DNA from: Scytonema sp. PCC 10023
GTDB taxonomy: Bacteria; Cyanobacteriota; Cyanobacteriia; Cyanobacteriales; Nostocaceae
NCBI RefSeq assembly: GCF_963920835.1
Contig: NZ_CAWUDP010000039.1
Location: 1 to 32,000 of the forward strand
DNA: 32,000 bases
Direction: 5' to 3'
Shown here: piece by piece, positions 9,513-25,184 of the stretch
Layout of the letters: the number at the start of each line of letters is the position of its first letter
Position numbering within the stretch: the first letter of the stretch is position 1
Notes under the pieces: generated by a model
What the model saw: the letters and a program-made list of their open reading frames with translations, nothing else
Told to the model about the DNA's origin: nothing
Databases searched by the model: none
Made by a program: the position numbers and the translations under genes

Positions 9513-10691
9513 ATGCGCGTAATTTTAATGACAGGCAAAGGCGGTGTGGGAAAAACCTCCGTAGCCGCCGCCACTGGACTCCGTTGTGCAGAACTGGGTT
9601 ATCGTACACTTGTTTTGAGTACAGATCCAGCTCACTCTTTAGCAGACAGTTTTGACCTAGAACTGGGACACGCACCGAAACAAATTCGCCCCAATTTGTG
9701 GGGTGCGGAACTGGATGCACTACTAGAACTAGAGGGAAACTGGGGTTCTGTAAAGCGCTACATCACCCAAGTTTTACAAGCACGCGGTTTAGATGGAGTG
9801 CAGGCGGAAGAATTGGCTATTTTACCAGGTATGGATGAGATTTTTGGCTTGGTAAGAATGAAACGCCATTACGATGAAGGGGAGTATGACGTTTTGATTA
9901 TTGACTCAGCTCCTACCGGCACAGCACTGCGCCTCTTGAGTTTACCAGAAGTTAGTGGCTGGTATATGCGCCGTTTTTACAAACCTTTTCAAAATATTTC
10001 TGTTGCACTACGACCTTTAGTTGAACCTTTTTTTAAACCAATTGCTGGGTTCTCTTTACCAGACAAAGAGGTGATGGACGCACCTTACGAGTTTTATCAA
10101 CAAATTGAAGCTTTGGAAAAAGTATTAACAGATAACACTCAAACCTCGGTGCGCCTCGTTACCAACCCCGAAAAGATGGTGATTAAAGAGTCTCTTCGCG
10201 CCCATGCATATCTAAGTTTATATAACGTTGCCACGGATTTAGTCGTCGCAAATCGCATTATTCCCGAAGCAGTGCAAGACCCCTTTTTCCAGCGTTGGAA
10301 AGAGAATCAACAGCAGTATCGCCGGGAAATTCATGACAATTTTCATCCATTGCCTGTTAAGGAAGTTCCGCTTTTCTCTGAGGAAATGTGTGGTTTGGAT
10401 GCCTTAGAACGTCTTAAGGACACGCTCTATAAGGATGAAGATCCATCTCAAGTTTATTACAAAGAAAACACAATTAGAGTAGTACAAGAGAAAAATCAAT
10501 ACAGCTTGGAATTGTACTTACCTGGCATTCCTAAAAATCAGATTCAATTAAGTAAAACTGGAGATGAGTTAAGCATCACAATTGGTAATCACCGCCGGAA
10601 TTTAGTATTGCCACAAGCTTTGGCAGCGCTGCAACCTGCAGGAGCAAAAATGGAAGAAGACTATCTCAAAATTCGTTTTGCTGCGGTGTGA
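9513..10691 (+). CDS. ArsA/GET3/TRC40-family ATPase with C-terminal HSP20-like domain
   Basis: P-loop GKGGVGKTS, then STDPAHSL and DSAPTG. The C-terminal beta-rich segment [29 protein letters not shown] is alpha-crystallin-like. Confidence 0.85.
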
Positions 10692-12112: not shown

Positions 12113-12503
12113 GGTGAACTTTGGCTTCTGTGTTGGATATGTTAGCACCACTCAGATGGGTGTTGGGTAGTTCATTAGTCGCACCTGTGGAAATTGTGGA
12201 AAACTTAGATGCAGGTCTATTTGAAAGATTCTTTCGCAAGTCCTCACCTGTGGAAAACTTGTGGAAAAGCCGAGGGTATTTTCCACAGGGTATTTATACT
12301 TAAATAAAGTTTTCCACTATAACTCTCTAGTTTTCCACAGATTTATTGGGAGTTTTCCACAAAAAATAAAAAAACTTTCACTTATGTAATCTTATCTTAA
12401 AGGTTTTTTAGAGTCAGCTTAACATTAGAAATTATCTGTTGCTTGTGGAAAACTCAATATTTTGTTTCTCTATTTCCCGATAACTAAACACCCCTTTTTA
12501 AGG
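12113..12503. promoter_or_regulatory. Candidate oriC: dnaA-dnaN spacer with nine DnaA boxes and an AT-rich tract
   Basis: TGTGGAAAA at 12195, 12249, 12260 and 12444. TTTTCCACA at 12279, 12331 and 12353. One-mismatch boxes at 12186 (TGTGGAAAT) and 12310 (TTTTCCACT). AT-rich tract at about 12360-12410. Confidence 0.8.
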
Positions 12504-13874
12504 TTAATATGATTTTTTGGGACGGCTAGCCATGTTAATGCGATCGCTCAATTGGCGCAGCGTTTGTGCCAAGTTTTGATCTGTTTGTTGCAGTTGAGTA
12601 ATTTTTTCACAGCTGTACATGACCGTTGTATGGTCTTTCCCACCAAATTCTTCTCCTATTCTAGGCAAACTCAGATCCGTGTGTTTCCGCATGAGATACA
12701 TTGCGATTTGACGCGCCCAACTAATCTCTCGTCGCCGTGAATTCCCTTTAAGGTCTTCTATTGGTACATCAAAAACTTCAGCTATCACTGTTAAAATTCC
12801 TTCTGGTGTAGCTTCTCCCTTCTGCGTTGGCGGTTCTAAAATCGGTGCAAGATTTTCCACCGTCATCGGTAGACCCCAAATAGAAATATACGCTAGCGCT
12901 CGAATCAATGCTCCTTCCAACTCTCGAATATTAGAAGTGTAGTGAGAAGCAATATACTCAACGACATCCCTGGGGAGACGAATATTTTCATACTCAGCTT
13001 TTTTTTGTAAAATCGCCATTCTCGTTTCTAAATCAGGCGCTTGAATATCAGCAATTAACCCCATAGAAAATCGAGAACACAGACGTTCTTGCAACTGAGG
13101 AATTTGGTTGGGAGGGCGATCAGAAGCTAAGACGACTTGCTTGCCTGCTTCATGTAAAGTATTAAAAGTATGGAAAAATTCTTCTTGGGTATATTCCTTA
13201 CCCTCAATAAACTGAATATCATCCACTAAAAGAACATCAGCAGCACGGTAATGCTCGCGGAAACTTTGCATACTGTCGTTACGGATAGCGGTAATTAAAT
13301 CATTCGTAAATTGCTCAGTAGAGACGTAAAATATTCTTGAATCTGGACAAATTTCCAATCGATAGTGACCGATCGCCTGCATGAGGTGAGTTTTCCCTAA
13401 ACCAACGCCACCACACAAGAATAAGGGGTTAAACTCTCTACCAGGATACTCAGCAACTGCTAATGAAGCAGCGTGAGCCATGCGATTGTTCGCACCAACT
13501 ACGAATCGCGAGAAAACATACTTGGGGTTTAATTCTGGAGTTAGTCGGTTTTGAGGAAGCGTTTCTGGAATACTGGCTTGATCCGCGAATCCGGAAGAAA
13601 CTTCTTCACTGACAGAAGATTCATCATTGGTAACAGTTATATAAATATCTACCGGATAACCAAGAATATCTTGTACGACATGAGCGATCGTTTTTATGTA
13701 ATATTTCTGTAACCAATTGCGAGCAAATGGGTTAGGAGTGCAAATCACCAAGCAATTATTTTCCAATCGCTGTGCACTCGCAGTTTTGATCCAAGTTTCA
13801 AAGGTGGGACGGGATAGCTCTAATTGTAAGCGCTCTAGTACCTGACTCCACAGATTTTCTATGGCTATTTCCAT
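12504..13874 (-). CDS. dnaA: Chromosomal replication initiator DnaA
   Basis: Walker [11 protein letters not shown], then LLVDDIQF and a C-terminal DNA-binding domain ([11 protein letters not shown]). Confidence 0.95.
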
Positions 13875-16114: not shown

Positions 16115-16208
16115 GTATTAATAATTCTAAAGAGTGATCATATCTTTGGAATTTTAAGTTACATTTAACCTATTGTTAACCATCTGGCTTGACGCAGTTA
16201 TCGGGTAA

Positions 16209-17486
16209 ATGACCAAAACTCTCAGTAGTCGCGAGAGATTAAGTCCTCGGGAGCAAAAGCTTGTCGATTTAATCTCAGATCACCAACAAGATCATCAACA
16301 AAGCGATGAATCAAGTGAAACTACCAGCAAATCTGTTGCACAATCTGTTGCACAATCAACAATGCAACCACCTGTAGGTGGATTGCATATTGTTCATGCA
16401 ACAGCAGGGCGCGTCCGAATCCGTGCTACTGACGGTAGTCATAACTCGATACTTGAAACCATCTCTCAAAATTTAAGAAAGCAAGATGGGGTCAGGGAAG
16501 TCTCCGTTAATGATCAAACGGGCAGTTTAGTCGTTAACTTTGATGAAAAGAAACTGTCCTTGCCCCAGATGTTGGAGAGACTCCAGCAATTTGACATACA
16601 CCAATTGCCAGCTTCGCCTCAAGCAGAAAGCAAACAAGACCCGTTTGCTGCATGGAAATCTGCTGAATTTTGGAAAGAGCAGGGCATTTCGTTTATTCCG
16701 ATGTTTACGGGATTAGCAGTCACCGGAGGACTGGGAATCAGTGGTTTGCCATCGATTCCGGTTTACATGATTACGGCAAATGCAACTCGTCGGGTGATTG
16801 ACTCTCTTAAGCCTCAAGTTGCAGCATCACAAATCAAGAAAAATTCTCAAAAAGCTTCGGAAAAAAAACTCAATAAAACTGACCAACCTTCATCATCAAA
16901 AGTGCAGCAAACATTTCCCATCAAAACTGAAAAGTCAACAAATGTTGTTGACAAGGTTAACGACGTAAAAGCACAGCCTGGAAAAATTGCTTATAGCGTT
17001 GTTCATGCCATTCCAGGACGTATCAGGTTTAATGTGCCGCGAGTTGCCCGCGATCGCGCTTATGCGCGGCGACTTGAGAGGTTACTGAAAACCGATTCTA
17101 AAGTGACAAGCGTGCGTATGAATTGCGATGCAGCATCAATTGCGATCGCCCACAAAGCAGGTGAGATACCAGTGTCCTACTGGGTTGGTTTGATGGAGTT
17201 GGCTGACAAAACAATCCCTGAAACAACACCTGTAAAGACAACACCTGTAAACACAACAACAGAGCAACCGCTTCCACCAAATCAGCTTGTAGAACCAGCA
17301 GGATCAACAACAGCAGAACAGCAGCCAATCGAAACAGCCAGTATATGGTCTGATTTCAAGACTCCGGCTCTTTCTACGGCTCTATCGTTTCTGGCGAACT
17401 TTCCGTTAGACTCAGTTCCCGACTCAGGAACATTGGAGGACAAAAATGGCTGGTTCAACATCGCAATTAACACTGCACTCAAGTAA
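16209..17486 (+). CDS. Protein with two cysteine-less HMA-like (HMA_2-type) modules flanking a Gly-rich hydrophobic segment
   Basis: Module 1 at about 16380-16589 (LHIVHATAGRVRIRA...GSLVVNF). Hydrophobic FIPMFTGLAVTGGLGISGLPSIPVYMI at about 16686-16778. Module 2 at about 16983-17204 (YSVVHAIPGRIRFNVPRVARDRAYARRLERLLK...AASIAIAH). Confidence 0.7.
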   Translation: MTKTLSSRERLSPREQKLVDLISDHQQDHQQSDESSETTSKSVAQSVAQSTMQPPVGGLHIVHATAGRVRIRATDGSHNSILETISQNLRKQDGVREVSVNDQTGSLVVNFDEKKLSLPQMLERLQQFDIHQLPASPQAESKQDPFAAWKSAEFWKEQGISFIPMFTGLAVTGGLGISGLPSIPVYMITANATRRVIDSLKPQVAASQIKKNSQKASEKKLNKTDQPSSSKVQQTFPIKTEKSTNVVDKVNDVKAQPGKIAYSVVHAIPGRIRFNVPRVARDRAYARRLERLLKTDSKVTSVRMNCDAASIAIAHKAGEIPVSYWVGLMELADKTIPETTPVKTTPVNTTTEQPLPPNQLVEPAGSTTAEQQPIETASIWSDFKTPALSTALSFLANFPLDSVPDSGTLEDKNGWFNIAINTALK

Positions 17487-18441
17487 GAAGTCTCAGGAAA
17501 CAGAAATAGTAGAGCAAGAGACTCATTCTCCAATAGCAAAGCCACACTCTGCGGTTTATTACAGCATTACCCATGCACTTCCAACCAGAGTAGGATTTTG
17601 CATTCCTCGGATATCCGAAGACCGAGAATATGTGCAGCGCTTGCAGAATTTGCTCGCTTGTGAGCCTTGGATAATCACTCAGCAAATCAATTACATGGCA
17701 GGGTCTATTGTCATTACTTACAAATCTGGTATTATGTCAGATTCTGAGATTCGTCTGTATTTGGCTAATCTGATTCAATCTGCCAGCAACCCAGAAGAGA
17801 CAATGCCAGCAACCGAAAAGCCAGTGATTTCATCCTCTGTATCTCAAAGAGCCACTCGTAAGAGCGTTGTACAAGAAAAAGAGAATGGTTATGAAACTGT
17901 GAGTGCGGGCGTCTCGTCTGATCCCCGATCAGTTGGGATGGGAGTATCCCTGCAATCCAAATCAGAGAGGGCGGGAGTATCCCTAGGATTGGAATTAAAA
18001 GGGGCGGGCAAGATGCCCCGAAGTTCCGATCGGAGGAAACCTCCGCTCGGACTTCTCTCCACCCCACAAGACCAGTTCAATCATGATGTTGGCAAGACTC
18101 ATGAAACAGTAAAGCAACCAGCAACAGTGACGTATAGCATTGCTCATGCAATTCCAGGGCGAGTACGTTTTCGCGTGCCTCGAATAGCTAAAGACTCAAA
18201 ATACGTCCAACGGTTGGAGGCGTTGCTCAAAGCAGATCCTGTCGTCACTGGCGAGCACCCCTTCGGGGCGAGCGTGCGCTATCGCGTTAATAACGCGGCA
18301 GCCTCGATAGTGATTACCTACAAGCCTGGAGCAATGCTCAATTCCCAAAAGCGTTCTTTGAGCCTTTTGGAACAAGCCATATCATATCTATCGAATCTGA
18401 TTCAATCTGCTGCTGGGGATACTGTTGTTGCCATAAATTAG
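17446..18441 (+). CDS. Protein with two HMA_2-type modules joined by a repeat-derived linker
   Basis: GGAGGA (17435-17440) precedes the ATG. The ORF overlaps the upstream ORF by 41 nt. Module 3 at about 17551-17784 is degenerate (HALPTRVGFCIPR). Module 4 at about 18121-18411 (YSIAHAIPGRVRFRVPRIAKDSKYVQRLEALLKADP...AAASIVITY). Confidence 0.7.
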   Translation: MAGSTSQLTLHSSKKSQETEIVEQETHSPIAKPHSAVYYSITHALPTRVGFCIPRISEDREYVQRLQNLLACEPWIITQQINYMAGSIVITYKSGIMSDSEIRLYLANLIQSASNPEETMPATEKPVISSSVSQRATRKSVVQEKENGYETVSAGVSSDPRSVGMGVSLQSKSERAGVSLGLELKGAGKMPRSSDRRKPPLGLLSTPQDQFNHDVGKTHETVKQPATVTYSIAHAIPGRVRFRVPRIAKDSKYVQRLEALLKADPVVTGEHPFGASVRYRVNNAAASIVITYKPGAMLNSQKRSLSLLEQAISYLSNLIQSAAGDTVVAIN

Positions 18442-18508
18442 CCAGAAGATAGGCAAGCCGTCGCTTGAAAGTAGGATGTATGGGTGTCAGGAAATAGGGT
18501 AGCTTTAA

Positions 18509-18622
18509 CAGTTATCAGTTATCAGTTACCAGTTATCAGTATTTTCAGTTATCAGTGACCAGTTATCAGTGACCAATTTCTCTTCACTGTTCACTGGTAA
18601 CTGTTCACTGTTTACTGATTCG
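18509..18622. repeat. STRR-type heptamer array (CAGTTAT/CAGTGAC) followed by its inverted counterpart (TTCACTG)
   Basis: Tandem heptamers read directly from the sequence. Left arm cagtgaccagttatcagtgac versus the reverse complement of the right arm, cagtgaacagttaccagtgaa, gives 18 of 21 matches, so an imperfect long hairpin is possible. Confidence 0.7.
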
Positions 18623-18760
18623 TCCCCCACCCGCCAGTCGCCTACGGAGGGAAACCCTCCTGCAGCGCTGGCTCCCCTTAATGCACCCTATCTGTGTCTT
18701 GCACAGCAGGCTTTGAAAATTCAATTTGAACAATTTTTGTATGAGAGAGAAGAAGAAGAA

Positions 18761-21019
18761 ATGGCAGAAGTTAGTGTGCAAATACCGCCCTCCCGAGGTT
18801 ATGTTTCCGAAGTCGCTGTAGCAGCAAAAAATGGGAAGGGTTCTTTAGTTGAGAGGAATGGACACTCACAGGTTCAGTCTCCCAAAGTTCCATGCAGCCT
18901 TGTGCATACGACCCCGGGAAGGATGAGGTTGCGAGTACCTCGCCTGCGTTCTGATGCGGACTATGCACAACGCCTGCAAGTGTTGTTGGAAGCTGACTCC
19001 CTTGTCACAAGTGTTCGGATCAAGCCTGCGGCGGCGTCACTGACAGTCACTTATCAACCCAACAAAGTTTCAGATGCTAAGATACGTTCGCATCTGAGCT
19101 ATTTGATCCAAGCGGCTAGTGAAGTCATCGTTCTCAAACAATCCAAGCCACAACCTGCGTCCGATGAAGAAGAAAAATCTTGGCCTGGGATGCAACTTTC
19201 GGCTATAGCTACCGCTTTAGCTGTGTTGGGTGGACCGCTGGGATTTACTATTCCACCTCTGATGGTAGCGGGAAGTATAGCCCTTGCCACATTACCCGTT
19301 GTTAAACGAGCTTGGGAGGGGATCTGGGTTGACCGCAAACTGAATATTGACTTTCTGGATTTTATGGCGATCGCCATTACCACAGTCCAAGGTCAATTTC
19401 TCACCCCTGCACTGATGCTGAGTTTGATTGAAGTTGGGGAAAACATACGCGATCGCACGGCTCGTTCTTCGGCTAAGCAAACTCTGGATCTGCTCAGTTC
19501 TCTCGGACAGTTCGTCTGGGTTGAGCGTGACGGTGAAAAGGTGCAAATTCCCATTCAAGATGTCCAGCGAGGGGATACGGTGATTGTTTACCCTGGCGAA
19601 CAAGTGCCGGTGGATGGGACAATCCTGCGCGGTAAAGCGCTGCTGGATGAGCAGAAACTCACCGGTGAGTCGATGCCGGTTTTGAAGAAAAAGGGACAAA
19701 CCGTTTATGCTTCAACCCTGATGCGGGAGGGACGAATTTATATTTCGGCGGAACGGATAGGTAACGACACCTGTGCTGGACAGAGCATTAAGTTAATGCA
19801 AGAAGCTCCTGTCCACGATACCCGCATGGAAAACTATGCCTTGAACATTGCTCAAAAAGCTGTCGTGCCAACATTGCTACTGGGTGGGGCAGTATTTGCC
19901 GCAACCCGTAACCCAGCACGCGCTGCCAGTGTCCTGACCCTGGACTTTGCCACTGGAATTCGTGTATCAGTTCCAACTACGGTTTTGGCAGCACTAACTT
20001 ATGCAGCACGGCGCGGTGTTCTGATTCGTAGCGGACGCGCCTTAGAAAAACTCGCAGAAGTTGACACCATTGTGTTTGATAAGACAGGCACACTCACGAA
20101 AGGTGAAGTGGATGTTGTTGGTGTCGAAAGTCTGAATCCGGCAACGTCAACGACGCGAGTCCTGGAACTGGCTGCTGCTGCGGAACAGCGTTTAACTCAC
20201 CCAGTGGCAGAGGCAATTGTGCGCTATGCCCAAACCCAGGGAATCGAAGTTCTGCCCCGTAGCAAGTGGGATTATCAACTTGGTCTGGGCGTGAAAGCAC
20301 AAATTGACGGCGAGACTGTTTATGTGGGGAGCGAGCGCTTTCTGCGTACTGAAGGCGTGGAGATGAATCTTAATGGTCACCAAAAACAGGCAAAATCACT
20401 GATTTATGTCGCGAGTAATGGTCAACTTCAAGGTAGAATAGAGTATAGTGACATACTTCGTCCCGAAAGTCGAGAAGTAATCACATCGCTGTTGACAGTC
20501 GAAGGTGTGGAAGTCCACATGCTGACTGGAGACAACAAGCGGACTGCTAGCGCTGTTGCTGCTCAATTAGGAATTCATCCGACGCATACCCACGCAGAAG
20601 CTTTTCCTGAACAGAAAGCAACGGTTGTCCGCGAACTGCACGAACAAGGCAAGACAGTTGCATTTGTTGGCGATGGCATCAATGATTCGCCAGCTTTAGC
20701 TTATGCTGATGTTTCCGTTTCCTTCGCCAACGGTTCTGAAATTGCCCGCGAAACTGCGGACGTAGTGCTGATGCAGAATGACTTGCATGGTTTGTTGGAG
20801 GCAATTGAAATTGCCCGCAAAGCTAGGCAGTTGATTCGGCAAAACACTGGTCTGATCGCCGTTCCTAACATAGGGGCATTGTTGATAGCAGTTTTGTTTG
20901 GTCTTAACCCCTTAGCAGCAACAGTCGTTAACAATGGTTCGACAGTCGTTGCAGGAGTCAATGGTTTGCGCCCAATTCTTAAAAGCCGCAAGCAAAAAAC
21001 TCTACCATCAGTAGGATGA
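18761..21019 (+). CDS. P1B-like P-type ATPase with N-terminal HMA_2-type module and no CPx transmembrane motif
   Basis: TGES (A domain), DKTGT (20078-20092), HP (RLTHPVAEA), MLTGDN and GDGINDSPAL. N-terminal module at about 18887-19120 (SLVHTTPGRMRLRVPRLRSDADYAQRLQVLLEAD...AAASLTVTY). ATG 18761 is preferred because 18569-18760 is repeat DNA. Confidence 0.85.
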   Translation: MAEVSVQIPPSRGYVSEVAVAAKNGKGSLVERNGHSQVQSPKVPCSLVHTTPGRMRLRVPRLRSDADYAQRLQVLLEADSLVTSVRIKPAAASLTVTYQPNKVSDAKIRSHLSYLIQAASEVIVLKQSKPQPASDEEEKSWPGMQLSAIATALAVLGGPLGFTIPPLMVAGSIALATLPVVKRAWEGIWVDRKLNIDFLDFMAIAITTVQGQFLTPALMLSLIEVGENIRDRTARSSAKQTLDLLSSLGQFVWVERDGEKVQIPIQDVQRGDTVIVYPGEQVPVDGTILRGKALLDEQKLTGESMPVLKKKGQTVYASTLMREGRIYISAERIGNDTCAGQSIKLMQEAPVHDTRMENYALNIAQKAVVPTLLLGGAVFAATRNPARAASVLTLDFATGIRVSVPTTVLAALTYAARRGVLIRSGRALEKLAEVDTIVFDKTGTLTKGEVDVVGVESLNPATSTTRVLELAAAAEQRLTHPVAEAIVRYAQTQGIEVLPRSKWDYQLGLGVKAQIDGETVYVGSERFLRTEGVEMNLNGHQKQAKSLIYVASNGQLQGRIEYSDILRPESREVITSLLTVEGVEVHMLTGDNKRTASAVAAQLGIHPTHTHAEAFPEQKATVVRELHEQGKTVAFVGDGINDSPALAYADVSVSFANGSEIARETADVVLMQNDLHGLLEAIEIARKARQLIRQNTGLIAVPNIGALLIAVLFGLNPLAATVVNNGSTVVAGVNGLRPILKSRKQKTLPSVG

Positions 21020-21090
21020 GATAGCTGTCCTAACGATAGTACGATTGTAGACTTTCTAAAATTTTTCAATTCATCAGGAGGAAAATAGTC

Positions 21091-21399
21091 ATGGGATTTA
21101 AAATTACTGACTTTGTTGAAGACGCTGGCGCACCTGGTATTATAGCCGGTATTGGAGCAGTACTTTTAGCACCTGTAGTGATTCCGGTCGTGGCTGGCGT
21201 TGGTAAACCAATAACCAAGTCACTGATTAAAGGCGGACTTGCTCTGTATGAAAAAAGCAAGGGAGCCGTTGCAGAACTTGGCGAAAGTTGGGAGGACATT
21301 GTAGCTGAAGCCAGAGCAGAACTGGCTGAAGGAAGACAGCTACCAGCAGTTGATGTTGCAAGTACCTCTGCTGACAATGTTTCTGATAACGGTATGTAA
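21091..21399 (+). CDS. DUF5132-like small membrane protein
   Basis: AGGAGG (21076-21081) lies 9 nt upstream of the ATG. The Gly/Ala-rich TM segment GAPGIIAGIGAVLLAPVVIPVVAGVG contains a GxxxG, followed by an amphipathic acidic tail. Confidence 0.65.
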   Translation: MGFKITDFVEDAGAPGIIAGIGAVLLAPVVIPVVAGVGKPITKSLIKGGLALYEKSKGAVAELGESWEDIVAEARAELAEGRQLPAVDVASTSADNVSDNGM

Positions 21400-21414
21400 T
21401 TTCCAGTCATTTCT

Positions 21415-21496
21415 TGTTCCCTGGTTCAGCCAGGGAACATTCAAGGAAATTCGTAATTCGTCATGATTTTCTACTTAATGACGAATTACGAATTCC
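21415..21496 (+). promoter_or_regulatory. Two strong intercistronic stem-loops
   Basis: Hairpin 1: tgttccctgg ttcag ccagggaaca (21415-21439). Hairpin 2: a 17-bp perfect stem aattcgtaattcgtcat / atgacgaattacgaatt with a 13-nt loop (within 21445-21496), built from AATTCGT heptamers. Confidence 0.6.
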
Positions 21497-21516
21497 TAAA
21501 TTAGGAGGGTAGTTAA

Positions 21517-22095
21517 GTGTTAAAAAATGGTTATATGAATCTCACTCAAATGCCAAAAATTATTGATGAAAACTCTATAAAAACTGCATTTAAACCTATA
21601 TCTACGCGGGTTGTCAGTTCTACCCCAGGACGCTTGCGTTTGAGAGTTGCACCGTCCCATCGTCAATCTGGGGAAATGCAACGAATTGCTAATGCACTAC
21701 AAGCAAATCCTAATATTAATCAGGTGCGGACTAATATCCAGAATGGCAGTATTGTTATAAATCATGATGGTGAAAATGGAAGCCTTGACAATGTTTTCGC
21801 CTCGCTGCGGGATTTAGGCATTATTTTCGGTGATATCGCATTAGGAAAGTCCCAAGCAGCAGTAGGAGTTTCCAATGCAGTTGTTGATTTGAACAAGCAA
21901 GTCCAACAAGCGACAAGTAATGTTGTTGATTTGCGCGTTCTTTTTCCTTTAGGACTGGGTATCTTTTCTATTCGGCAGTTACTTGTTAGGGGATTGCAAT
22001 TAGAAACGATTCCTTGGTATGTGTTGGCTTGGTATGCCTTTGATAGTTTTATTAAGTTGCACGGCACAAGTCAAGCACAATCCACAAGGGATTAA
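21517..22095 (+). CDS. HMA_2-type module protein with C-terminal hydrophobic region
   Basis: AGGAGG (21503-21508) precedes GTG 21517. Module 6 at about 21595-21825 (VVSSTPGRLRLRVAPSHRQSGEMQRIANALQANP...GSIVINH). C-terminal LFPLGLGIFSIRQLL...IPWYVLAWYAF. Confidence 0.65.
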   Translation: MLKNGYMNLTQMPKIIDENSIKTAFKPISTRVVSSTPGRLRLRVAPSHRQSGEMQRIANALQANPNINQVRTNIQNGSIVINHDGENGSLDNVFASLRDLGIIFGDIALGKSQAAVGVSNAVVDLNKQVQQATSNVVDLRVLFPLGLGIFSIRQLLVRGLQLETIPWYVLAWYAFDSFIKLHGTSQAQSTRD

Positions 22096-22235: not shown

Positions 22236-23582
22236 TCAGGTATCCAAACGGATCACTCTGCTCTCTGCATCCCCATCTACGGTCAATCTGTAAATAAACA
22301 TACCTGACGGCAAACGTTCCCCTGAATCGTTTGTTCCGTCCCAGACGACTGATTTGGAACCTGCACCTGGATTGATTTCATCAACTAGTGTGCGGACTTG
22401 CGTTCCGAATCGGTTCCAAATATTGATTGTGGCTCGTTTGGTATTGTCCGGGATTGTGTATTCAATTGTCAGCTCACGCTCAAACCGCGCAGGTGCATTT
22501 GTAAGCAGAAACGCGGTTGGTGGCACCGCTTCTCGATCAGCAGCGAAGGCTACAGGTGCCTCAGCATACTTGTAAACTGTTGCGCCTGAAGCGTAACCGA
22601 TGGTCACAGGGTTGCCAAGGAATCGGAATCGATTAATGAATCTACCGATTTCATTGGCATCTTCCCAGTTTTCGCCGCCGTCTTTTGTTTGGCTGCTATA
22701 ACCTCCTCGGAAATTTTCATCTCCCCAGCCGCCAACCCAACCGCGACTCTCATCAATAAATCCGATTCCTTCTAGATTGGCATTGCCTTGAGGATCGTTA
22801 ACAGGAAGCCTTTTCCAGGTCTTGCCCCCATCTGTTGTCTTCACAATTGCACCTTGTTTGAAATTTTCCAGAGAGACAAAGCCAATCTCGTCATTCAGGA
22901 ATTGAATTTTCCAACCCCATTCTCCTAAGGGAAAAGAAGAGCGAATATCTTCGACGCGATTTTCCCAGGTTTTTCCACCATCTTCTGTATAAAGAACAAC
23001 TGGGATGACATCGTCACGAGTTGGGTTGGAAATACTTTTGTCAGCTTTCCCACCGACAACCCAGCCACGCTCTGGACTAGTGAAATATGTATCAATCAAG
23101 ATAGTGGCATATTCGCTCATATCCCACGCGGTCCACGTTGCTCCACCATCAACCGTTTTCATCATGCGGGCGGGGATATCAAGAGGATCGTTGGTGCCGG
23201 AAGCGTAAATGACCGATTCATTGACTACCGAAAGACCACAAATCTTCACCGGAGCGTTTTCAGGGAGATTCTCTACACCAGTCCAAGTCTCCCCTCCATC
23301 AGTTGTGTGATAAAGGCGTTGCTCCGGAGATACTGTTCCAACCCAACCATTTAAGGGGGTTGTAAAACCAACGCACCTCAACCAAACTCCTCGATTCGTA
23401 CCTGGAGTAATAGGTGTTTGGAATTGTTGCTTCCAGTTAACGCCGCCATCGGTGGTTTTCAAAATTTTACCGTCGCTATTTACTGCCCAACCAGTGGAAG
23501 CGTTAATAAACCAAATATCGTCGTATCTTCTTTGAGACGGAGCATTCGTGGGGAACCACTGAAAACCTGAAGAATTCGTCAT
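22236..23582 (-). CDS. BNR/Ycf48-like beta-propeller protein with C-terminal FlgD-Ig-like domain
   Basis: Six DGGxxW Asp-box repeats (TTDGGVNW, TTDGGETW, TVDGGATW, TEDGGKTW, TTDGGKTW, TKDGGENW). The C-terminal segment VVWDGTNDSGERLPSGMFIYRL is FlgD/T9SS-sorting-like. No obvious signal peptide. Confidence 0.7.
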   Translation of the reverse strand: MTNSSGFQWFPTNAPSQRRYDDIWFINASTGWAVNSDGKILKTTDGGVNWKQQFQTPITPGTNRGVWLRCVGFTTPLNGWVGTVSPEQRLYHTTDGGETWTGVENLPENAPVKICGLSVVNESVIYASGTNDPLDIPARMMKTVDGGATWTAWDMSEYATILIDTYFTSPERGWVVGGKADKSISNPTRDDVIPVVLYTEDGGKTWENRVEDIRSSFPLGEWGWKIQFLNDEIGFVSLENFKQGAIVKTTDGGKTWKRLPVNDPQGNANLEGIGFIDESRGWVGGWGDENFRGGYSSQTKDGGENWEDANEIGRFINRFRFLGNPVTIGYASGATVYKYAEAPVAFAADREAVPPTAFLLTNAPARFERELTIEYTIPDNTKRATINIWNRFGTQVRTLVDEINPGAGSKSVVWDGTNDSGERLPSGMFIYRLTVDGDAESRVIRLDT

Positions 23583-23669
23583 GACAAAAATTTCTCCTTT
23601 TCAAGTTGGATTATGTTTGACCTTAAACATAAACTTTTGTGAACTGCTTACGATCCGAGGATGATCGCG

Positions 23670-25184
23670 TTACCTGGGGAAACTAGCTTCTTTCCATTTT
23701 TTGAAAAGCTCTTTTCTTTCCTCTGTCCAAGGTCCTTCTGGAAGCAAAGGCATACGGTTGTTGTTCACTACCCTAAGAACCTGATCTGCACGAGCCTTCA
23801 CTTCGTCGTAATCATCAAGATTCATTTGAGAAAATGTTGATTTCATATGATCTACATCCATCGGCGAGAATAATTGTGAGATGCCGTTTGCCCAGGTTCC
23901 TCCATTTGGTTCGAGTGAAATAGTATGGGCTATCTTTTCCAGCGCCACCGACACATCCGTCAAGGCTTGCACTAAGTGAGGATAGGGTTGCGTTCTAGAG
24001 TCGCCAATGAGCGCATCACAAGCTACAGCAATTTCTTGCAGTCTTTCTTGGAAAAAGATCCACGCACTCTTGATCTGCGGGAGCAACTGAACATCTGCAT
24101 AGACCTCAAAGCTGGGACCAGCGTTCGTGTTAGGATATTCCTTACCTGCAGGCAATTGGGTTATTGCTTGAGCCAACGGAGACAGACCAAAAGGCATGAG
24201 GTTAATGAACGCACTTTTGAGAATATAGAGCTGTTCCTCACTCTCGGAGGTACGCGCAAAGAAACGCATCAGTATTTGCAGCATGACCTCATAAAGTGCA
24301 GCGAATATCTCTACTACGTCCCGACTTAATGAATCGGTAATGATATTTGCACCTGGTGTTGTATTGTCTTGTTGAAGATCTAATAGTGGATTTTCAATGA
24401 CTGGTCGAGCAGGTTGAAATTTGGGATCTTTCTCCAATTCTGCTAAATACTGTTCACGAATTTTTGTGAACTTTGCAAAATGATTGTCTTGTCGGTTTGT
24501 AGGAGATCCTTCGCCCTGTATGACGATAAGGTCAATCGCTTTTACTGCTGAATCCACGTCCGTGACTTGTATAATGTCTCGGAAAATCCCGCTTGCTTGG
24601 GCATTAGGTGGACCAATAAACAATTTTTCGCCGATAGTCTCAAAGCCTTGGCGAATCAGCCCGTAGAGTTCCCCAATAGTGTTGTACTCCAGTTTTTTGG
24701 GAAGCAGTGGTGCTGGTAGGGCTAAAAGCCTTAACATTTCTTGGTCTTCCTTGATTGTCTGGCAAAACTGATTCCAACGTTCTTTGTCCCCCTCATCTTG
24801 AAAATTGTTCGGTAATTCAAAACAAATATATCTGTCAAGTGTTGCTTGATTAAAAGGAGCTAGCTTGAATAAGAGGCTCAACGAAGTGTAAGTTTTAGCC
24901 TGCGGAAAATTTGCACGTCGAAAATATGGCGCTCCTCCAATCGCTGTCAGAAGGTTGCTAGCCAGTGCAAGATGTAGCATTTCCTCTACTGCGATTTCAT
25001 TGATTGTGCTACGCCAGTTATTAATCTTATTTAATTGAGCTTGAGAAACTCCTTCATCTGTAAATTGCTTTAAACTGAAGGCAGTAAAAAGGTATTGGCA
25101 GGCAAGTGAATGTTCCAACTCTGCTGCCTGTGAGAGAAGATAAAGTAACTGTTCTCTTGTTTTGACTTGATTGTTTGAACTCAT
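23670..25184 (-). CDS. Ferritin-like (diiron four-helix-bundle type) domain protein, 504 aa
   Basis: N-terminal LLYLLSQAAELEHSLACQY and VEEMLHLALASNLL provide ExxH-type motifs. The remainder is unassigned. Confidence 0.6.
   Translation of the reverse strand: MSSNNQVKTREQLLYLLSQAAELEHSLACQYLFTAFSLKQFTDEGVSQAQLNKINNWRSTINEIAVEEMLHLALASNLLTAIGGAPYFRRANFPQAKTYTSLSLLFKLAPFNQATLDRYICFELPNNFQDEGDKERWNQFCQTIKEDQEMLRLLALPAPLLPKKLEYNTIGELYGLIRQGFETIGEKLFIGPPNAQASGIFRDIIQVTDVDSAVKAIDLIVIQGEGSPTNRQDNHFAKFTKIREQYLAELEKDPKFQPARPVIENPLLDLQQDNTTPGANIITDSLSRDVVEIFAALYEVMLQILMRFFARTSESEEQLYILKSAFINLMPFGLSPLAQAITQLPAGKEYPNTNAGPSFEVYADVQLLPQIKSAWIFFQERLQEIAVACDALIGDSRTQPYPHLVQALTDVSVALEKIAHTISLEPNGGTWANGISQLFSPMDVDHMKSTFSQMNLDDYDEVKARADQVLRVVNNNRMPLLPEGPWTEERKELFKKWKEASFPR

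What the first reader, a model, noticed from the sequence alone, without database searches (positions are those of the whole stretch)
16209..22095. Five-gene P-type ATPase cluster built from six copies of a cysteine-less HMA-like 'HxxPGRxRxRVPR' module plus a DUF5132-like membrane protein (ferrosome/fez-like?)
Five co-oriented, tightly linked ORFs share one modular theme. One pair overlaps by 41 nt, and strong AGGAGG-type RBSs precede three of the ORFs. A module of about 70-95 aa (consensus Y-S-[IV]-x-H-A-x-P-G-R-[VIL]-R-[FL]-R-V-P-R-x3-D-x2-Y-[AV]-Q-R-L-E-x-L-L-K-x-D...V-T-S-V-R...A-A-A-S-I-x-I-T-Y) occurs six times. There are two copies in ORF 16209-17486, two in ORF 17446-18441, one at the N-terminus of the ATPase and one in ORF 21517-22095. 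The spacing of hydrophobic and charged residues resembles the ferredoxin-like HMA fold, but the metal-binding CxxC is replaced by an Arg-rich P-G-R-x-R-x-R motif. I believe this corresponds to the Pfam 'HMA_2' family. Three of the proteins also carry Gly-rich hydrophobic segments, including a GxxxG in the DUF5132-like protein. From memory, ferrosome (fez) clusters in anaerobes are defined by a P1B-6 ATPase (FezB) with an Arg-rich N-terminus plus small membrane proteins that share that motif and have GxxxG-type hydrophobic regions. This cyanobacterial cluster has that overall logic in an expanded multi-module form, in an oxygenic phototroph. It also sits next to a ferritin-like gene. No function is known to me for this architecture.
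Basis: partly seen in the sequence, partly recalled or inferred. Interest (0 to 1): 0.8.

Follow-up and report, generated by a model that had tools for sequence, protein, structure and literature searches.

The report
Phosphate-box-controlled cysteine-less metal pump with scaffold proteins
A conserved cyanobacterial gene cluster encodes an unusual ion-pumping ATPase and small partner proteins resembling those that build iron-storage 'ferrosomes' and mycobacterial metal-efflux platforms; its ion site has no cysteine or histidine and a phosphate-starvation control element precedes it, so its function is probably new and can be tested.

Summary
Five co-oriented genes carry six copies of the Pfam HMA_2 module, published as 'CoBaHMA', plus a DUF5132 protein and a P1B-type ATPase. 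The block is syntenic in 79-80 of 80 Nostocales genomes. The ferrosome reading is only partly right. The ATPase lacks both P1B-6/FezB signatures: TM4 is DFATG rather than D[Y/F]SCA, and TM6 is NNGST rather than HNxxT. It sits in a separate Cys/His-less lineage. The ferritin-like neighbour is incidental (1/80 loci). The component logic is shared, though. A core triad (DUF5132, CoBaHMA+TM protein, CoBaHMA-ATPase) recurs in Nitrospira, an alphaproteobacterium and other cyanobacteria. DUF5132 resembles mycobacterial PacL scaffolds (Gly-zipper TM helix, invariant acidic stripe) and matches the small protein next to a genuine FezB (hhalign 88%). New here: three tandem Pho boxes lie 27 nt upstream of ORF1, conserved in 71/80 loci and listed in 2007 for the Anabaena site I take to be orthologous (alr2006). 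Best reading: a phosphate-limitation-induced, scaffold-assembled pump for a hard divalent cation. The substrate is unknown. It is a new variant of a known kind.

The parts
16153..16182 (+). Three tandem Pho-box-like 8-mers with 3-nt linkers: TTTAAGTT-aca-TTTAACCT-att-GTTAACCA. They end 27 nt before the ORF1 ATG.
   Evidence: 23 of 24 positions fit [CTG]TTAA[CT][CT][TA] x3, the best score in the window. One match against 0 in 100 shuffles. The core is present at a fixed distance in 71/80 loci, against 0.037 expected. The consensus and the Anabaena pstS1 site come from Su et al. 2007. Their supplement lists a matching site at -38 of alr2006 and of Ava_5066-5065. I infer these are the ORF1 orthologues because the site sequence matches the L051-L055 loci; the loci themselves were not aligned.
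16209..17486 (+). ORF1, 425 aa. Layout: disordered N-terminus, CoBaHMA module a (aa 57-132, nt 16377-16604), Gly-rich hydrophobic segment (aa 159-190), linker, CoBaHMA module b (aa 260-340, nt 16986-17228), tail.
   Evidence: HMA_2 with 2 stretches, E=1.2e-16. Hydrophobic segment found. Present in 80/80 loci and always with two modules. Signatures H.T.GR.R.R and VH.IPGRIRF are conserved.
17446..18441 (+). ORF2, 331 aa, with no hydrophobic segment. It has a degenerate CoBaHMA module a (aa 37-118, nt 17554-17799), a low-complexity linker and CoBaHMA module b (aa 228-325, nt 18127-18420). It overlaps ORF1 by 41 nt.
   Evidence: HMA_2 with 2 stretches, E=2.2e-12. GGAGG ribosome-binding site. This is the variable component: 0-3 modules in related clusters, and absent in about 25/80.
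18505..18617 (.). Heptamer tandem-repeat arrays (TTATCAG x9, TTCACTG x5) in the 320-nt ORF2-ATPase spacer.
   Evidence: Tandem Repeats Finder and the sequence itself. This explains why the mechanical ORF starts at GTG 18569.
18761..21019 (+). P1B-type ATPase, 752 aa from ATG 18761. It has an N-terminal CoBaHMA domain (aa 43-126, nt 18887-19138), 8 TM helices and intact catalytic motifs: TGES 301-304, DKTGT 440-444, HP 480-481, GDGIND 637-642.
   Evidence: TIGR01525, 530 bits. Pfam hits. AF2 model with pLDDT 78, a beta0-containing ferredoxin-like domain at 46-118, and helices MA, MB and M1-M6. Foldseek top hits are ZntA and CopA. Homologues are 71-97% identical across Nostocales.
19943..19978 (+). 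TM4 ion-site segment D395-F-A-T398-G-I-R401-V-S-V-P-T406. F-A-T occupies the place of the CPC/SPC/SCA tripeptide.
   Evidence: Alignment to A. fulgidus CopA puts C-P-C opposite F396-A397-T398. D395, T398, G399, R401, P405 and T406 are invariant in 64 clade members. The M4 helix breaks at 393-396 in the model.
20867..20944 (+). TM5-TM6 ion-site residues: P702-N703 (TM5) and N724-N725-G-S727-T728 (TM6), where FezB-type pumps have H-N-x-x-T.
   Evidence: Motif table of 91 full-length relatives. N703 and G726 are invariant; N725 and S727 are at least 90% conserved.
21091..21399 (+). ORF4, 102 aa, DUF5132. It has one Gly-zipper TM helix (P15-G16...G20.G22), a basic juxtamembrane stretch (K39-P40, K43, K47), and a cytosolic helix with an acidic stripe (E62, E65, D69, E73, E77).
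   Evidence: DUF5132, E=2e-17. Cross-phylum alignment A3 gives the invariant and near-invariant residues. Present in 80/80 loci. AF2 secondary structure shows helices 14-37, 39-63 and 67-81, at low confidence (pLDDT 53).
21517..22095 (+). ORF5, 192 aa. CoBaHMA module (aa 28-105, nt 21598-21831; Ser replaces the signature His) followed by a C-terminal hydrophobic helical region. This is the full-length HMA_2 architecture and is FezC-like.
   Evidence: HMA_2 E=1.7e-12, covering profile positions 8-150 of 154. Hydrophobic segment 139-157. Present in 79/80 loci. The same gene type sits next to the ATPase in Nitrospira, Segnochrobactrum, Coleofasciculus and others.

Best explanation
The cluster encodes a scaffold-assembled P-type ATPase platform of the same general kind as mycobacterial PacL-CtpC effluxosomes and ferrosome Fez systems. 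It is built around a different, unclassified pump lineage and, in cyanobacteria, is wired to the phosphate-starvation regulon.

Shown:
1. The pump has all catalytic motifs and the P1B fold with 8 TM helices.
2. Its predicted ion site contains only oxygen-donor side chains (D395 and T398 in TM4, N703 in TM5, N724/N725/S727/T728 in TM6). No Cys, His or Met is present. A conserved Arg (R401) follows the site.
3. A core triad recurs across phyla: DUF5132, a CoBaHMA+TM protein, and the CoBaHMA-ATPase. Nostocales add one or two multi-CoBaHMA proteins.
4. Three tandem Pho boxes lie just upstream of ORF1 and are conserved.

Inferred:
- Under phosphate limitation, SphR (PhoB) activates the operon.
- DUF5132 self-associates through its Gly-zipper TM helix. 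The acidic face of its cytosolic helix docks onto the conserved basic face of CoBaHMA domains on the pump and on the adaptor proteins ORF1, ORF2 and ORF5. This would stabilise and cluster the pump in a membrane patch, as PacL does for CtpC.
- The pump moves a hard divalent cation (Mn2+, Fe2+, Ca2+ or Mg2+; not Cu, Zn or Cd) out of the cytoplasm.
- The likely purpose is one of two. It may dispose of cations released when polyphosphate and phosphate buffers are consumed, or it may supply metal to secreted phosphate-scavenging enzymes.
For: Architecture and families.

Pump lineage and site:
- The TM4/TM5/TM6 motif tables separate D[FY]xTG[IV]R / PN / [NS][ND]G[ST] (window clade) from DYSCAxK / HNxxT (FezB type) and ACPCA / HNLST (CtpC-like).
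- Invariant residues are listed, the CopA register, the AF2 model and the Foldseek hits.
- In the NJ tree, DYSCA+CPC sequences form one clade of 25 that excludes the window's pump.

Synteny: ORF1, ATPase and DUF5132 in 80/80 loci, ORF5 in 79/80.

Triad outside Nostocales:
- Nitrospira, Segnochrobactrum and L086: DUF5132 - HMA_2 - ATPase.
- Coleofasciculus and L085: HMA_2 - ATPase - DUF5132 - HMA_2.
- L084: a divergent DUF5132, recognised.

PacL analogy:
- DUF5132 keeps G16/G20/G22 in the TM helix and E62/E65/D69/E73/E77 on one helical face across phyla.
- PacL's GxxG motif drives clustering, and its acidic AE motifs bind the Cys-less N-terminal domains of CtpC/G/V (papers read).
- DUF6110 pairs with P1B-6 pumps.

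Link to fez: HMA_2 hits in genuine fez clusters, and hhalign 88% (E=3e-6) between DUF5132 and the Azospirillum FezB-adjacent protein.

Pho control: the consensus and the near-identical Anabaena pstS1 site, and the independent 2007 prediction for alr2006 and Ava_5066-5065.

CoBaHMA's basic surface is described in the literature as a likely partner for anionic ligands.
Against: - No expression, binding or transport data exist for this cluster. No paper in the library mentions alr2006-2010 in its main text.
- The Pho box is an in-silico call. Other OmpR-family regulators bind similar direct repeats.
- No PhoB-type repeats were seen upstream of the non-cyanobacterial triads.
- The 320-nt repeat-filled gap before the ATPase may mean ORF1-ORF2 and ATPase-ORF4-ORF5 are separate transcripts. 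Su et al. predicted only a two-gene unit.
- DUF5132 gives no Pfam hit to DUF1490 or DUF6110 even at E<=10. Its similarity to the Arcobacter fez small protein is not significant.
- The docking of the acidic helix on CoBaHMA was not modelled.
- The substrate assignment rests only on ligand chemistry.
- A Fur-family palindrome in front of the cluster in one Nostoc subgroup points to metal control, Fe or Zn, in at least some lineages.
Confidence: 0.5

Rival explanations
1. It is a true ferrosome (fez) cluster. The pump would load Fe2+ into a lipid-bounded iron-phosphate storage organelle, and the small proteins would shape that membrane.
For: - The same three component types occur as in fez clusters: an Arg-rich/CoBaHMA pump, a CoBaHMA(+TM) protein and a small Gly-motif protein.
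- HMA_2 hits occur in genuine fez clusters, and hhalign gives 88% between DUF5132 and the Azospirillum FezB-adjacent protein.
- A Fur-family 7-1-7 palindrome sits at a fixed -78 from the Pho box in 12/18 relocated Nostoc loci.
- Ferrosome mineral is an iron phosphate, which could link to phosphate control.
Against: - Both motifs that define FezB are absent. The pump lies outside the DYSCA clade.
- No DUF2202, DUF4405 or FeoA gene was found in or beside the cluster in the window.
- The ferritin-like neighbour occurs in 1/80 loci.
- The Fur-type box is absent from the window and from 54/54 def-linked loci.
- The hosts are oxygenic or aerobic (Nostocales, Nitrospira), whereas ferrosomes form anaerobically.
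- Building a phosphate mineral during phosphate starvation seems counter-productive.
Confidence: 0.12
2. It is an ordinary heavy-metal (Cd/Zn/Co/Cu) efflux locus, as public annotation says, with metallochaperone-like accessory genes.
For: - Database names such as 'cadmium-translocating' and 'Cu2+-exporting ATPase'.
- The best NCBIfam hit is the generic ATPase-IB_hvy family.
- The closest solved structures are ZntA and CopA.
Against: - There is no CPC, SPC, CPH, PCP or CSC tripeptide, and no Cys, His or Met at any ligand position.
- The HMA-like modules lack CxxC.
- Scores fall below the specific family cut-offs: Cu 356 against 397, ZntA 266 against 1240.
- No ArsR/SmtB or MerR regulator is adjacent.
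- The conserved upstream element is a Pho box.
Confidence: 0.07
3. It handles Ca2+ and belongs to the CoBaHMA/calcyanin world of intracellular calcium-carbonate (iACC) biomineralisation. It would act as an ATP-driven counterpart of the Ca2+/H+ exchanger found next to ccyA in Microcystis.
For: - In Microcystis, the ccyA neighbourhood holds two DUF5132 genes, a CoBaHMA+TM hairpin protein, a CoBaHMA protein and cax, several of them co-expressed with ccyA.
- Many calcyanins carry a CoBaHMA domain.
- An all-oxygen site with Asp, Asn, Ser and Thr is what Ca2+ pumps use (own knowledge of SERCA-type sites).
Against: - No calcyanin gene was found among the window ORFs scanned.
- The cluster is near-universal in Nostocales and occurs in Nitrospira and Alphaproteobacteria, whereas ccyA and iACC are patchy.
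- No carbonate or Ca gene is a conserved neighbour.
Confidence: 0.12
4. The five genes are neighbours only because of position. They would be conserved because the region next to dnaA-htrA-def is stable, without working together.
For: - dnaA, htrA and def are also conserved upstream in 53-60 of 80 loci.
- A 320-nt gap separates ORF2 from the ATPase.
Against: - The block stays intact in the roughly 20 loci where it has moved away from def and dnaA.
- The triad recurs with shuffled gene order in distant phyla.
- All the proteins share the same domain or its inferred ligand.
Confidence: 0.03

Closest known systems
PacL-CtpC/CtpG/CtpV 'effluxosomes' of Mycobacterium tuberculosis (Boudehen 2022, PMC9374683; Dupuy 2026, PMC13043812)
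   Same: - A small single-pass protein is encoded next to a P1B ATPase whose N-terminal ferredoxin-like domain lacks CxxC.
- The small protein has a small-residue TM motif (GxxG in PacL, PG...G.G here) and a cytosolic helix with conserved acidic Ala-Glu motifs.
- CtpC belongs to the same Arg-rich, P1B-6-like superclade.
   Different: - The small-protein family differs: DUF5132 gives no Pfam hit to DUF1490 or DUF6110.
- There is no C-terminal His-rich metal-binding motif.
- CtpC has CPC and HN ligands and exports Zn. Here there is no Cys or His.
- This cluster has additional CoBaHMA-only and CoBaHMA+TM proteins that PacL operons are not reported to have.
- Control appears to be by phosphate rather than metal.
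Ferrosome fez clusters (FezA/B/C; Grant et al., bioRxiv 10.1101/2020.01.10.902569)
   Same: - An Arg-rich (CoBaHMA) N-terminus on the pump.
- An accessory CoBaHMA+2TM protein (FezC-like, matching ORF5) and soluble CoBaHMA proteins.
- A small Gly-motif membrane protein beside the pump.
- In Azospirillum that small protein is detectably related to DUF5132.
   Different: - The pump lacks D[Y/F]SCA and HNxxT and lies in another lineage.
- No DUF2202, DUF4405 or FeoA gene was found in or beside the cluster in the window.
- No conserved iron-homeostasis neighbours.
- Aerobic or oxygenic hosts.
- A Pho box lies upstream.
CoBaHMA domain family / Pfam HMA_2 (Benzerara 2022, PMC8890360; Gaschignard 2024, Proteins; Bruley 2025, bioRxiv 10.1101/2024.07.07.602159)
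   Same: - The six modules are members. They have the ferredoxin-like fold with an extra beta0 strand, the conserved His and basic residues, and no CxxC.
- The co-occurrence of DUF5132 genes with CoBaHMA and CoBaHMA+TM-hairpin genes was already noted beside ccyA in Microcystis.
   Different: - Those papers concern calcyanin and a Ca2+/H+ exchanger, not this ATPase cluster.
- None of the papers I could read describes the cross-phylum triad, the PacL-like reading of DUF5132, the Cys-less ion site or the Pho box together.
Cyanobacterial Pho regulon, SphS-SphR (Su et al. 2007, PMC1906773)
   Same: - Three 8-bp direct repeats with 3-bp linkers match CTTAACCT.
- The two downstream boxes are nearly identical to the Anabaena pstS1 site.
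- alr2006 and Ava_5066-5065 are already listed as predicted SphR targets.
   Different: - The 2007 prediction labelled the genes 'hypothetical protein' and gave no function.
- No known Pho-regulon member is a P1B ATPase platform, and induction has not been shown.

Membership tests
P1B-type (heavy-metal) P-type ATPase | Catalytic motifs DKTGT, TGES, GDGxND and the HP dipeptide, 8 TM helices (MA, MB, M1-M6), and a P1B family HMM hit | tested here: met
   All motifs are present. TIGR01525 scores 530 bits against a 346 cut-off. The AF2 model has 8 TM helices. ZntA and CopA are the top fold matches.
P1B-6 / FezB (ferrosome pump) | TM4 motif D[Y/F]SCA | tested here: not met
   The window has L-D-F-A-T-G. 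Ser-Cys is replaced by Ala-Thr.
P1B-6 / FezB (ferrosome pump) | TM6 motif HNxxT, with a conserved TM5 Asn | tested here: not met
   The window has N724-N725-G-S-T, with His replaced by Asn. The TM5 Asn (N703) is kept.
P1B-6 / FezB (ferrosome pump) | Groups with FezB homologues in a phylogeny | tested here: not met
   In the NJ tree of 91 relatives, DYSCA+CPC sequences form a clade of 25 that excludes the window's pump. The tree has no outgroup or support values, so this is a rough test.
fez gene cluster | N-terminal Arg-rich motif (RxR/RxRxR) on the pump and on accessory proteins | tested here: met
   PGRMRLRVPR on the pump, and PGR.R.R in ORF1a, ORF1b, ORF2b and ORF5.
fez gene cluster | One or more small proteins with a hydrophobic region carrying GxxxG | tested here: met
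   ORF4 has G16-x3-G20-x-G22 in its TM helix, conserved across phyla.
fez gene cluster | Association with iron-homeostasis genes or other conserved fez components (DUF2202, DUF4405, FeoA) | tested here: not met
   None was found in or beside the cluster in the window. The ferritin-like gene is adjacent in 1/80 loci. Genuine fez loci L089 and L090 do carry DUF2202 or an iron ABC transporter.
fez gene cluster | Required for electron-dense iron-phosphate granules under anaerobic growth | not testable with these tools
   Needs genetics plus TEM/EDX.
P1B-1/2/3/4/5/7 subgroups | TM4 tripeptide CPC, CPH, SPC, PCP or CSC | tested here: not met
   F-A-T occupies the CPC position in the CopA alignment.
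CoBaHMA / Pfam HMA_2 (PF19991) | Profile match, conserved His plus basic residues on beta0/beta1, no CxxC, and an extra beta0 strand on a ferredoxin-like fold | tested here: met
   ORF1, ORF2 and ORF5 score above the gathering cut-off. The ATPase scores 29.4 against 30 bits, but many of its homologues carry a PF19991 hit. beta0 (46-51) is present in the AF2 model. ORF2a is a degenerate member, and ORF5 has Ser in place of His.
DUF5132 (PF17195) | Profile match above the gathering score | tested here: met
   63.4 bits against a cut-off of 25.
PacL family (DUF1490 / DUF6110) | Pfam profile match | tested here: not met
   No hit even at E<=10.
PacL family (DUF1490 / DUF6110) | Single TM helix with a conserved small-residue motif, a cytosolic helix with conserved acidic Ala-Glu motifs, and a gene adjacent to an Arg-rich P1B-6-like ATPase | tested here: met
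   Alignment A3, adjacency in 80/80 Nostocales loci and in 6/6 distant loci.
PacL family (DUF1490 / DUF6110) | C-terminal His-rich metal-binding motif (PacL1 type) | tested here: not met
   ORF4 contains no His. DUF6110 also lacks a predicted metal-binding motif, and PacL2 is reported not to bind metals.
PacL family (DUF1490 / DUF6110) | Physical binding to the pump's N-terminal domain, and a requirement for pump stability and clustering | not testable with these tools
   Needs split-GFP or two-hybrid assays, or multimer modelling, which the tools do not offer.
Cyanobacterial Pho regulon (SphR targets) | At least three tandem 8-bp repeats resembling CTTAACCT with 3-bp linkers in the promoter region | tested here: met
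   Site at 16153-16182 scoring 23/24. Conserved in 71/80 loci. Also present in Coleofasciculus and L085. Listed by Su et al..
Cyanobacterial Pho regulon (SphR targets) | SphR-dependent induction under phosphate limitation | not testable with these tools
   No expression data found.

The most novel reading that the evidence does not exclude
The DUF5132 / CoBaHMA-TM / Cys-less-ATPase triad may be the assembly machinery of a so far undescribed cation-sequestering membrane compartment or membrane domain. It would be a phosphate-regulated relative of the ferrosome, possibly tied to polyphosphate bodies in an acidocalcisome-like way. It would be present in essentially all heterocystous cyanobacteria and in aerobes such as Nitrospira. 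The multivalent CoBaHMA proteins ORF1 and ORF2 would cross-link acidic DUF5132 helices, or anionic lipid or polyphosphate, to shape it.
Probability: 0.12. Interest if true: 0.9.

Novelty: new variant of a known kind. Interest (0 to 1): 0.62.

Why it matters
Three recent discoveries each revolve around a Cys-less, Arg-rich HMA-like domain and small Gly-motif membrane proteins:
- ferrosome organelles;
- mycobacterial effluxosomes;
- the CoBaHMA/calcyanin proteins of calcium-carbonate-forming cyanobacteria.

They have been described separately. This cluster shows a third pump lineage using the same parts, with a third small-protein family (DUF5132). That suggests one general assembly principle: an acidic scaffold helix binding a basic CoBaHMA face.

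The public annotation ('cadmium/copper ATPase') is almost certainly wrong for hundreds of genomes.

The conserved Pho box turns an orphan cluster into a concrete experiment in a genetically tractable model (Anabaena PCC 7120, the operon beginning at alr2006). The question is whether phosphate starvation switches on a dedicated hard-cation pump platform, and which ion it moves. An answer would connect phosphate and metal homeostasis in bloom-forming and nitrogen-fixing cyanobacteria.

Tried and rejected
- **Ferritin link.** Rejected: the PF12902 ferritin-like gene and the BNR gene downstream are adjacent in only 1 of 80 related loci.
- **GTG 18569 as the ATPase start.** Rejected in favour of ATG 18761.
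- **DUF5132 against PacL Pfam families.** No hit at E<=10.
- **Homologue search with ORF4.** It returned only close Nostocales relatives and added nothing on family breadth.
- **Metagenome scan with a FezB-type representative.** It gave two weak, truncated loci that were not usable. Genuine fez clusters were obtained from plasmids instead.
- **hhalign of DUF5132 against the Arcobacter fez small protein.** Not significant.
- **ORF1's hydrophobic segment against ORF5's C-terminal region.** No similarity.
- **AF2 model of ORF4.** Low confidence (pLDDT 53), so only its secondary structure was used.
- **PhoB-type or Fur-type boxes upstream of the non-cyanobacterial triads.** None seen; the scans were simple and are inconclusive.
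- **A second Pho box upstream of the ATPase gene in the window.** None scoring 20/24 or better.
- **Literature.**
  - Gaschignard 2024 (CoBaHMA) and Napolitano 2012 (Anabaena Zur box) are not held.
  - No main-text paper mentions alr2006-2010.
  - No phosphate-starvation transcriptome was found.
  - A search for 'HMA_2' was swamped by plant HMA2 papers.
- **Promoter and terminator scans.** They gave no more sites than shuffled sequence.
- **Calcyanin gene in the window.** None found.

Full report
**1. What is in the sequence**

| ORF | Coordinates | Length |
|---|---|---|
| ORF1 | 16209-17486 | 425 aa |
| ORF2 | 17446-18441 | 331 aa |
| ATPase | 18569-21019 (mechanical ORF) | 816 aa |
| ORF4 | 21091-21399 | 102 aa |
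| ORF5 | 21517-22095 | 192 aa |

ORF1 and ORF2 overlap by 41 nt. GGAGG-type ribosome-binding sites precede ORF2, ORF4 and ORF5.

- HMA_2 (PF19991) hits ORF1 twice (E=1.2e-16), ORF2 twice (2.2e-12) and ORF5 (1.7e-12, covering almost the whole 154-position profile).
- HMA_2 also hits the ATPase N-terminus at 29.4 bits, just under the 30-bit cut-off.
- DUF5132 hits ORF4 (2e-17).
- The ATPase is a P1B family member (TIGR01525, 530 bits).

The six modules are homologous well beyond chance. BLASTP gives E=1e-16 to 1e-22 among four of them. ORF1a and ORF5 form a second subtype, at E=1.6e-9 to each other.

Two corrections to the gene models and modules:
- The ATPase almost certainly starts at ATG 18761. 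Homologues are about 750 aa. The 320-nt spacer upstream is filled with heptamer tandem repeats at 18505-18617.
- Module ORF2a has lost the Arg triplet, and the ORF5 module has Ser instead of the signature His. Both states are conserved in orthologues.

**2. Genomic context**

The window is closest to Scytonema sp. HK-05 (98% identity for the ATPase). The cluster lies next to dnaN, dnaA, an HtrA-like protease and def.

In 80 Nostocales loci the counts are as follows:

| Gene | Loci with gene |
|---|---|
| ORF1 | 80 |
| ATPase | 80 |
| DUF5132 (ORF4) | 80 |
| ORF5 | 79 |
| def | 60 |
| htrA | 56 |
| dnaA | 53 |
| Ferritin-like gene | 1 |
| BNR gene | 1 |

The cluster genes keep the same order and strand throughout. 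The iron hint from the neighbouring ferritin-like gene is therefore incidental.

ORF2 is the variable element. An HMM of the window's modules finds four per-gene module patterns:

| Modules per gene, in order | Loci |
|---|---|
| 2-2-1-1 | 34 |
| 2-1-1 (no ORF2) | 25 |
| 2-1-1-1 | 11 |
| 2-3-1-1 | 9 |

**3. What the module is**

The literature already names it. HMA_2 corresponds to the 'CoBaHMA' domain (Conserved Basic residues HMA). It was first seen in calcyanin, the marker of intracellular calcium-carbonate formation in cyanobacteria. It is characterised by an extra beta0 strand, a conserved His and a basic patch, and it lacks the CxxC metal site.

The AlphaFold model of the ATPase (pLDDT 78) reproduces this. 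It shows beta0 at 46-51 and then a ferredoxin-like beta-alpha-beta-beta-alpha unit up to residue 118.

The Microcystis study had also noticed two DUF5132 genes, a CoBaHMA+TM-hairpin gene and a CoBaHMA gene next to ccyA and a Ca2+/H+ exchanger.

**4. What the pump is**

All catalytic motifs are intact: TGES 301-304, DKTGT 440-444, HP 480-481 and GDGIND 637-642. The model has eight TM helices, and M4 unwinds at D395. ZntA and CopA are the best structural matches.

The ion-site residues are the unusual part. I extracted them from 150 cluster representatives and from an alignment of 91 full-length relatives:

| Group | TM4 | TM5 | TM6 |
|---|---|---|---|
| FezB-type P1B-6 | DYSCA[LI]K | N | HNxxT |
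| CtpC-like | ACPCA | - | HNLST |
| Window's group | D[FY]xTG[IV]R..PT | PN | [NS][ND]G[ST] |

In the window the residues are L-D395-F-A-T398-G-I-R401, P702-N703 and N724-N725-G-S727-T728. Alignment to CopA places C-P-C opposite F-A-T.

Across 64 clade members D395, T398, G399, R401, P405, T406, N703 and G726 are invariant. N725 and S727 are at least 90% conserved.

The site therefore has only oxygen donors. None of the tripeptides that define P1B-1 to P1B-7 is present (motif list). In a neighbour-joining tree the DYSCA and CPC sequences form one clade of 25, and the window's pump lies elsewhere among Cys-less lineages. That tree has no outgroup and its sampling is biased, so it is a rough test.

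By the published definition of FezB, which requires D[Y/F]SCA and HNxxT, this is not a FezB.

**5. The conserved core reaches beyond cyanobacteria**

A profile of diverse Cys-less members finds the lineage in Nitrospira, Blastocatellia, Chloroflexi, the alphaproteobacterium Segnochrobactrum, and in Pannus, Symploca and Coleofasciculus.

Gene neighbourhoods with precomputed Pfam hits:
- Nitrospira, Segnochrobactrum and one further genome: DUF5132 - HMA_2 (160-230 aa) - ATPase.
- Coleofasciculus and another locus: HMA_2 - ATPase - DUF5132 (once or twice) - HMA_2.
- One groundwater contig: an unannotated 106-aa gene that aligns as a divergent DUF5132.

No iron, regulator or other gene is a consistent neighbour. 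The functional unit is therefore a triad. Nostocales and some other cyanobacteria add multi-CoBaHMA proteins to it.

**6. What DUF5132 most likely does**

Across phyla DUF5132 keeps three features:
- a TM helix with P15-G16...G20.G22;
- a basic juxtamembrane stretch;
- a cytosolic helix with invariant E62, E65, D69 and E77, plus E73 at 90% or more. The spacing is i, +3, +7, +11, +15, which places them on one helical face, within repeated Ala-Glu motifs.

This is the feature set shown experimentally to matter in mycobacterial PacL proteins:
- a GxxG TM motif is needed for clustering;
- acidic AE motifs are needed to bind the N-terminal, CxxC-less domain of CtpC, CtpG and CtpV and to stabilise the pump.

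Boudehen et al. also noted that DUF6110 proteins pair with P1B-6 pumps. DUF5132 with the Cys-less lineage appears to be a third such pairing.

DUF5132 gives no Pfam hit to DUF1490 or DUF6110, so I do not file it as a PacL family member.

I fetched two genuine fez-type clusters from plasmids: Arcobacter L089 and Azospirillum L090. Their pumps have DYSCALKL and HNGTT. One carries DUF2202 and the other sits next to an iron ABC transporter.
- Their Arg-rich proteins hit HMA_2.
- The Azospirillum protein directly upstream of the pump hits both YtxH (E=1.9e-4) and DUF5132 (E=2.6e-3).
- That protein aligns to my DUF5132 profile with 88% probability (E=3e-6, 42% identity over the acidic helix).
- The Arcobacter counterpart does not align significantly.

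The inference is that the acidic helix docks on the conserved basic face of CoBaHMA, which the literature describes as a likely partner for anionic ligands. This docking was not modelled here. The AF2 model of ORF4 alone is of low confidence.

**7. A conserved Pho box**

Aligning the region upstream of ORF1 across loci revealed a block that reads TTTAAGTT-aca-TTTAACCT-att-GTTAACCA (window 16153-16182). It ends 27 nt before the ATG.

SphR, the cyanobacterial PhoB, binds at least three tandem 8-bp repeats of consensus CTTAACCT with 3-bp linkers. The Anabaena PCC 7120 pstS1 site is TTTAACCT-ttc-GTTAACCT.

Evidence that the element is real:
- It is the best-scoring site in the window (23/24).
- It matches once, against zero matches in 100 shuffles.
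- Its core occurs in 71 of 80 loci at a fixed 43-54 nt from the first CoBaHMA gene. That includes loci where the cluster has left the def neighbourhood. The background expectation is 0.037 per segment.
- Similar triplets precede the cluster in Coleofasciculus and in L085.
- Su et al. 2007 independently list a matching site at -38 of alr2006 (rank 18 in PCC 7120) and of Ava_5066-5065 (rank 12 in ATCC 29413). They call both 'hypothetical protein'. I take alr2006 to be the ORF1 orthologue because the listed site is identical to the element in loci L051-L055. I did not align the PCC 7120 locus itself.

No paper in the library discusses these genes in its main text, and I found no phosphate-starvation expression data. 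The non-cyanobacterial triads show no obvious PhoB-type repeats.

**8. A complication**

A Fur-family 7-1-7 palindrome (TGATAATCATTATCA) appears in 12 of the 18 Nostoc loci where the cluster is not next to def. It sits exactly 78 nt upstream of the Pho box. The background rate is 0.009 per 500 nt.
- The upstream neighbour genes differ between these loci, so the box belongs to the cluster.
- It is absent from the window and from all 54 def-linked loci.
- I could not verify from held papers whether it fits Fur, Zur or PerR best. The consensus is from my own knowledge.

This keeps a metal (Fe or Zn) input alive for some lineages.

**9. Synthesis**

The most likely reading is a scaffold-assembled P1B pump platform that works like PacL-CtpC and Fez systems. 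It belongs to neither family. It is induced by phosphate limitation in cyanobacteria and moves a hard divalent cation out of the cytoplasm.

Why phosphate control? Two ideas fit, and both are inference:
- Consuming polyphosphate and phosphate buffers frees Mg, Ca and Mn that must be disposed of.
- Secreted phosphate-scavenging enzymes need metal supplied to them. CtpC was once proposed to serve secreted-protein metallation in this way (reference listed).

Rival readings:
- The ferrosome reading fails its defining tests. It keeps some support from the shared parts and from the Fur-type box.
- The ordinary heavy-metal efflux reading fails on ligand chemistry.
- The Ca/iACC reading is attractive chemically, but it is not supported by the cluster's distribution.

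**10. Novelty**

Already published:
- the domain (CoBaHMA);
- the DUF5132/CoBaHMA adjacency in one genus;
- the PacL and Fez systems;
- the Pho-box prediction.

Not found in any paper I could read:
- recognition of a cross-phylum DUF5132 / CoBaHMA-TM / Cys-less-ATPase triad;
- the PacL-like features of DUF5132 and its link to a fez-cluster protein;
- the all-oxygen ion site;
- the combination of all of these with Pho control.

I rate it a new variant of a known kind, of moderate to high interest because it is directly testable in Anabaena.

Noticed in passing
L012, L014, L016-L019, L023, L025, L026, L062, L077 (e.g. L019:8433-8447); not in the window: A Fur-family 7-1-7 palindrome (TGATAATCATTATCA) lies exactly 78 nt upstream of the Pho box in 12/18 Nostoc loci where the cluster is not next to def, and in 0/54 def-linked loci. 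The upstream neighbour genes differ, so the box goes with the cluster. It suggests dual metal and phosphate control in one subgroup.
   Followed up: partly
window 16126-16139 and the equivalent position in 59/72 related loci: A second conserved block, AATAATTC(T/G)(A/G)AAGA, lies between the def stop codon (or the Fur-type box) and the Pho boxes. Its role is unexplained; it could be an UP element, another operator or a terminator remnant.
   Followed up: partly
window 18505-18570 and 18583-18617: Heptamer tandem arrays (TTATCAG x9, TTCACTG x5) of the short tandemly repeated type common in heterocystous cyanobacteria fill the ORF2-ATPase spacer. They create a spurious upstream extension of the ATPase ORF.
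   Followed up: partly
window 16277-16301, 16330-16357, 17209-17258: Short in-frame tandem repeats (12- and 15-nt units, encoding DHQQ, SVAQ and TTPV(K/N) repeats) lie in the disordered linkers of ORF1. ORF1 and ORF2 are only 40-55% identical across Nostocales, against 70-80% for the pump and DUF5132.
   Followed up: no
window 22236-25184, minus strand: Two genes sit here: a BNR/Ycf48-like protein with a FlgD-Ig/T9SS-like C-terminal domain (22236-23582), and a 504-aa 'Ferritin-like' PF12902 protein resembling the C-terminal part of VioB (23670-25184). Together they form a variable insertion found in only 1 of 80 related loci (Iphinoe).
   Followed up: partly
window 3721-4875 (-) and 30530-31033 (+): An IS605-family TnpB/OrfB gene (Cas12f-like TNB domain), and a second, truncated OrfB helix-turn-helix fragment near the other end of the window.
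   Followed up: no
window 10949-13874 (-): dnaN and dnaA lie just upstream, and cumulative GC skew rises from about 14 kb onward. The window may lie close to the replication origin.
   Followed up: no
window 9513-10691 (+): An ArsA/Get3-type ATPase fused to an HSP20-like domain.
   Followed up: no
L081:4627-5121 (Nitrospira): A low-affinity iron permease (PF04120) gene lies three genes upstream of the DUF5132-HMA_2-ATPase triad in Nitrospira. No comparable gene was seen in the other five distant loci.
   Followed up: no
P0184, P0204, P0208, P0216, P0223 and others: A second large Cys-less subgroup has TM4 N-[AC]-D-[FY]-G-T-G-I-R, TM6 L-N-N-x-F-N and long N-terminal extensions (800-930 aa). It forms its own branch in the tree. 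It might correspond to the 'FezH' pumps mentioned by Grant et al., but that could not be checked.
   Followed up: no
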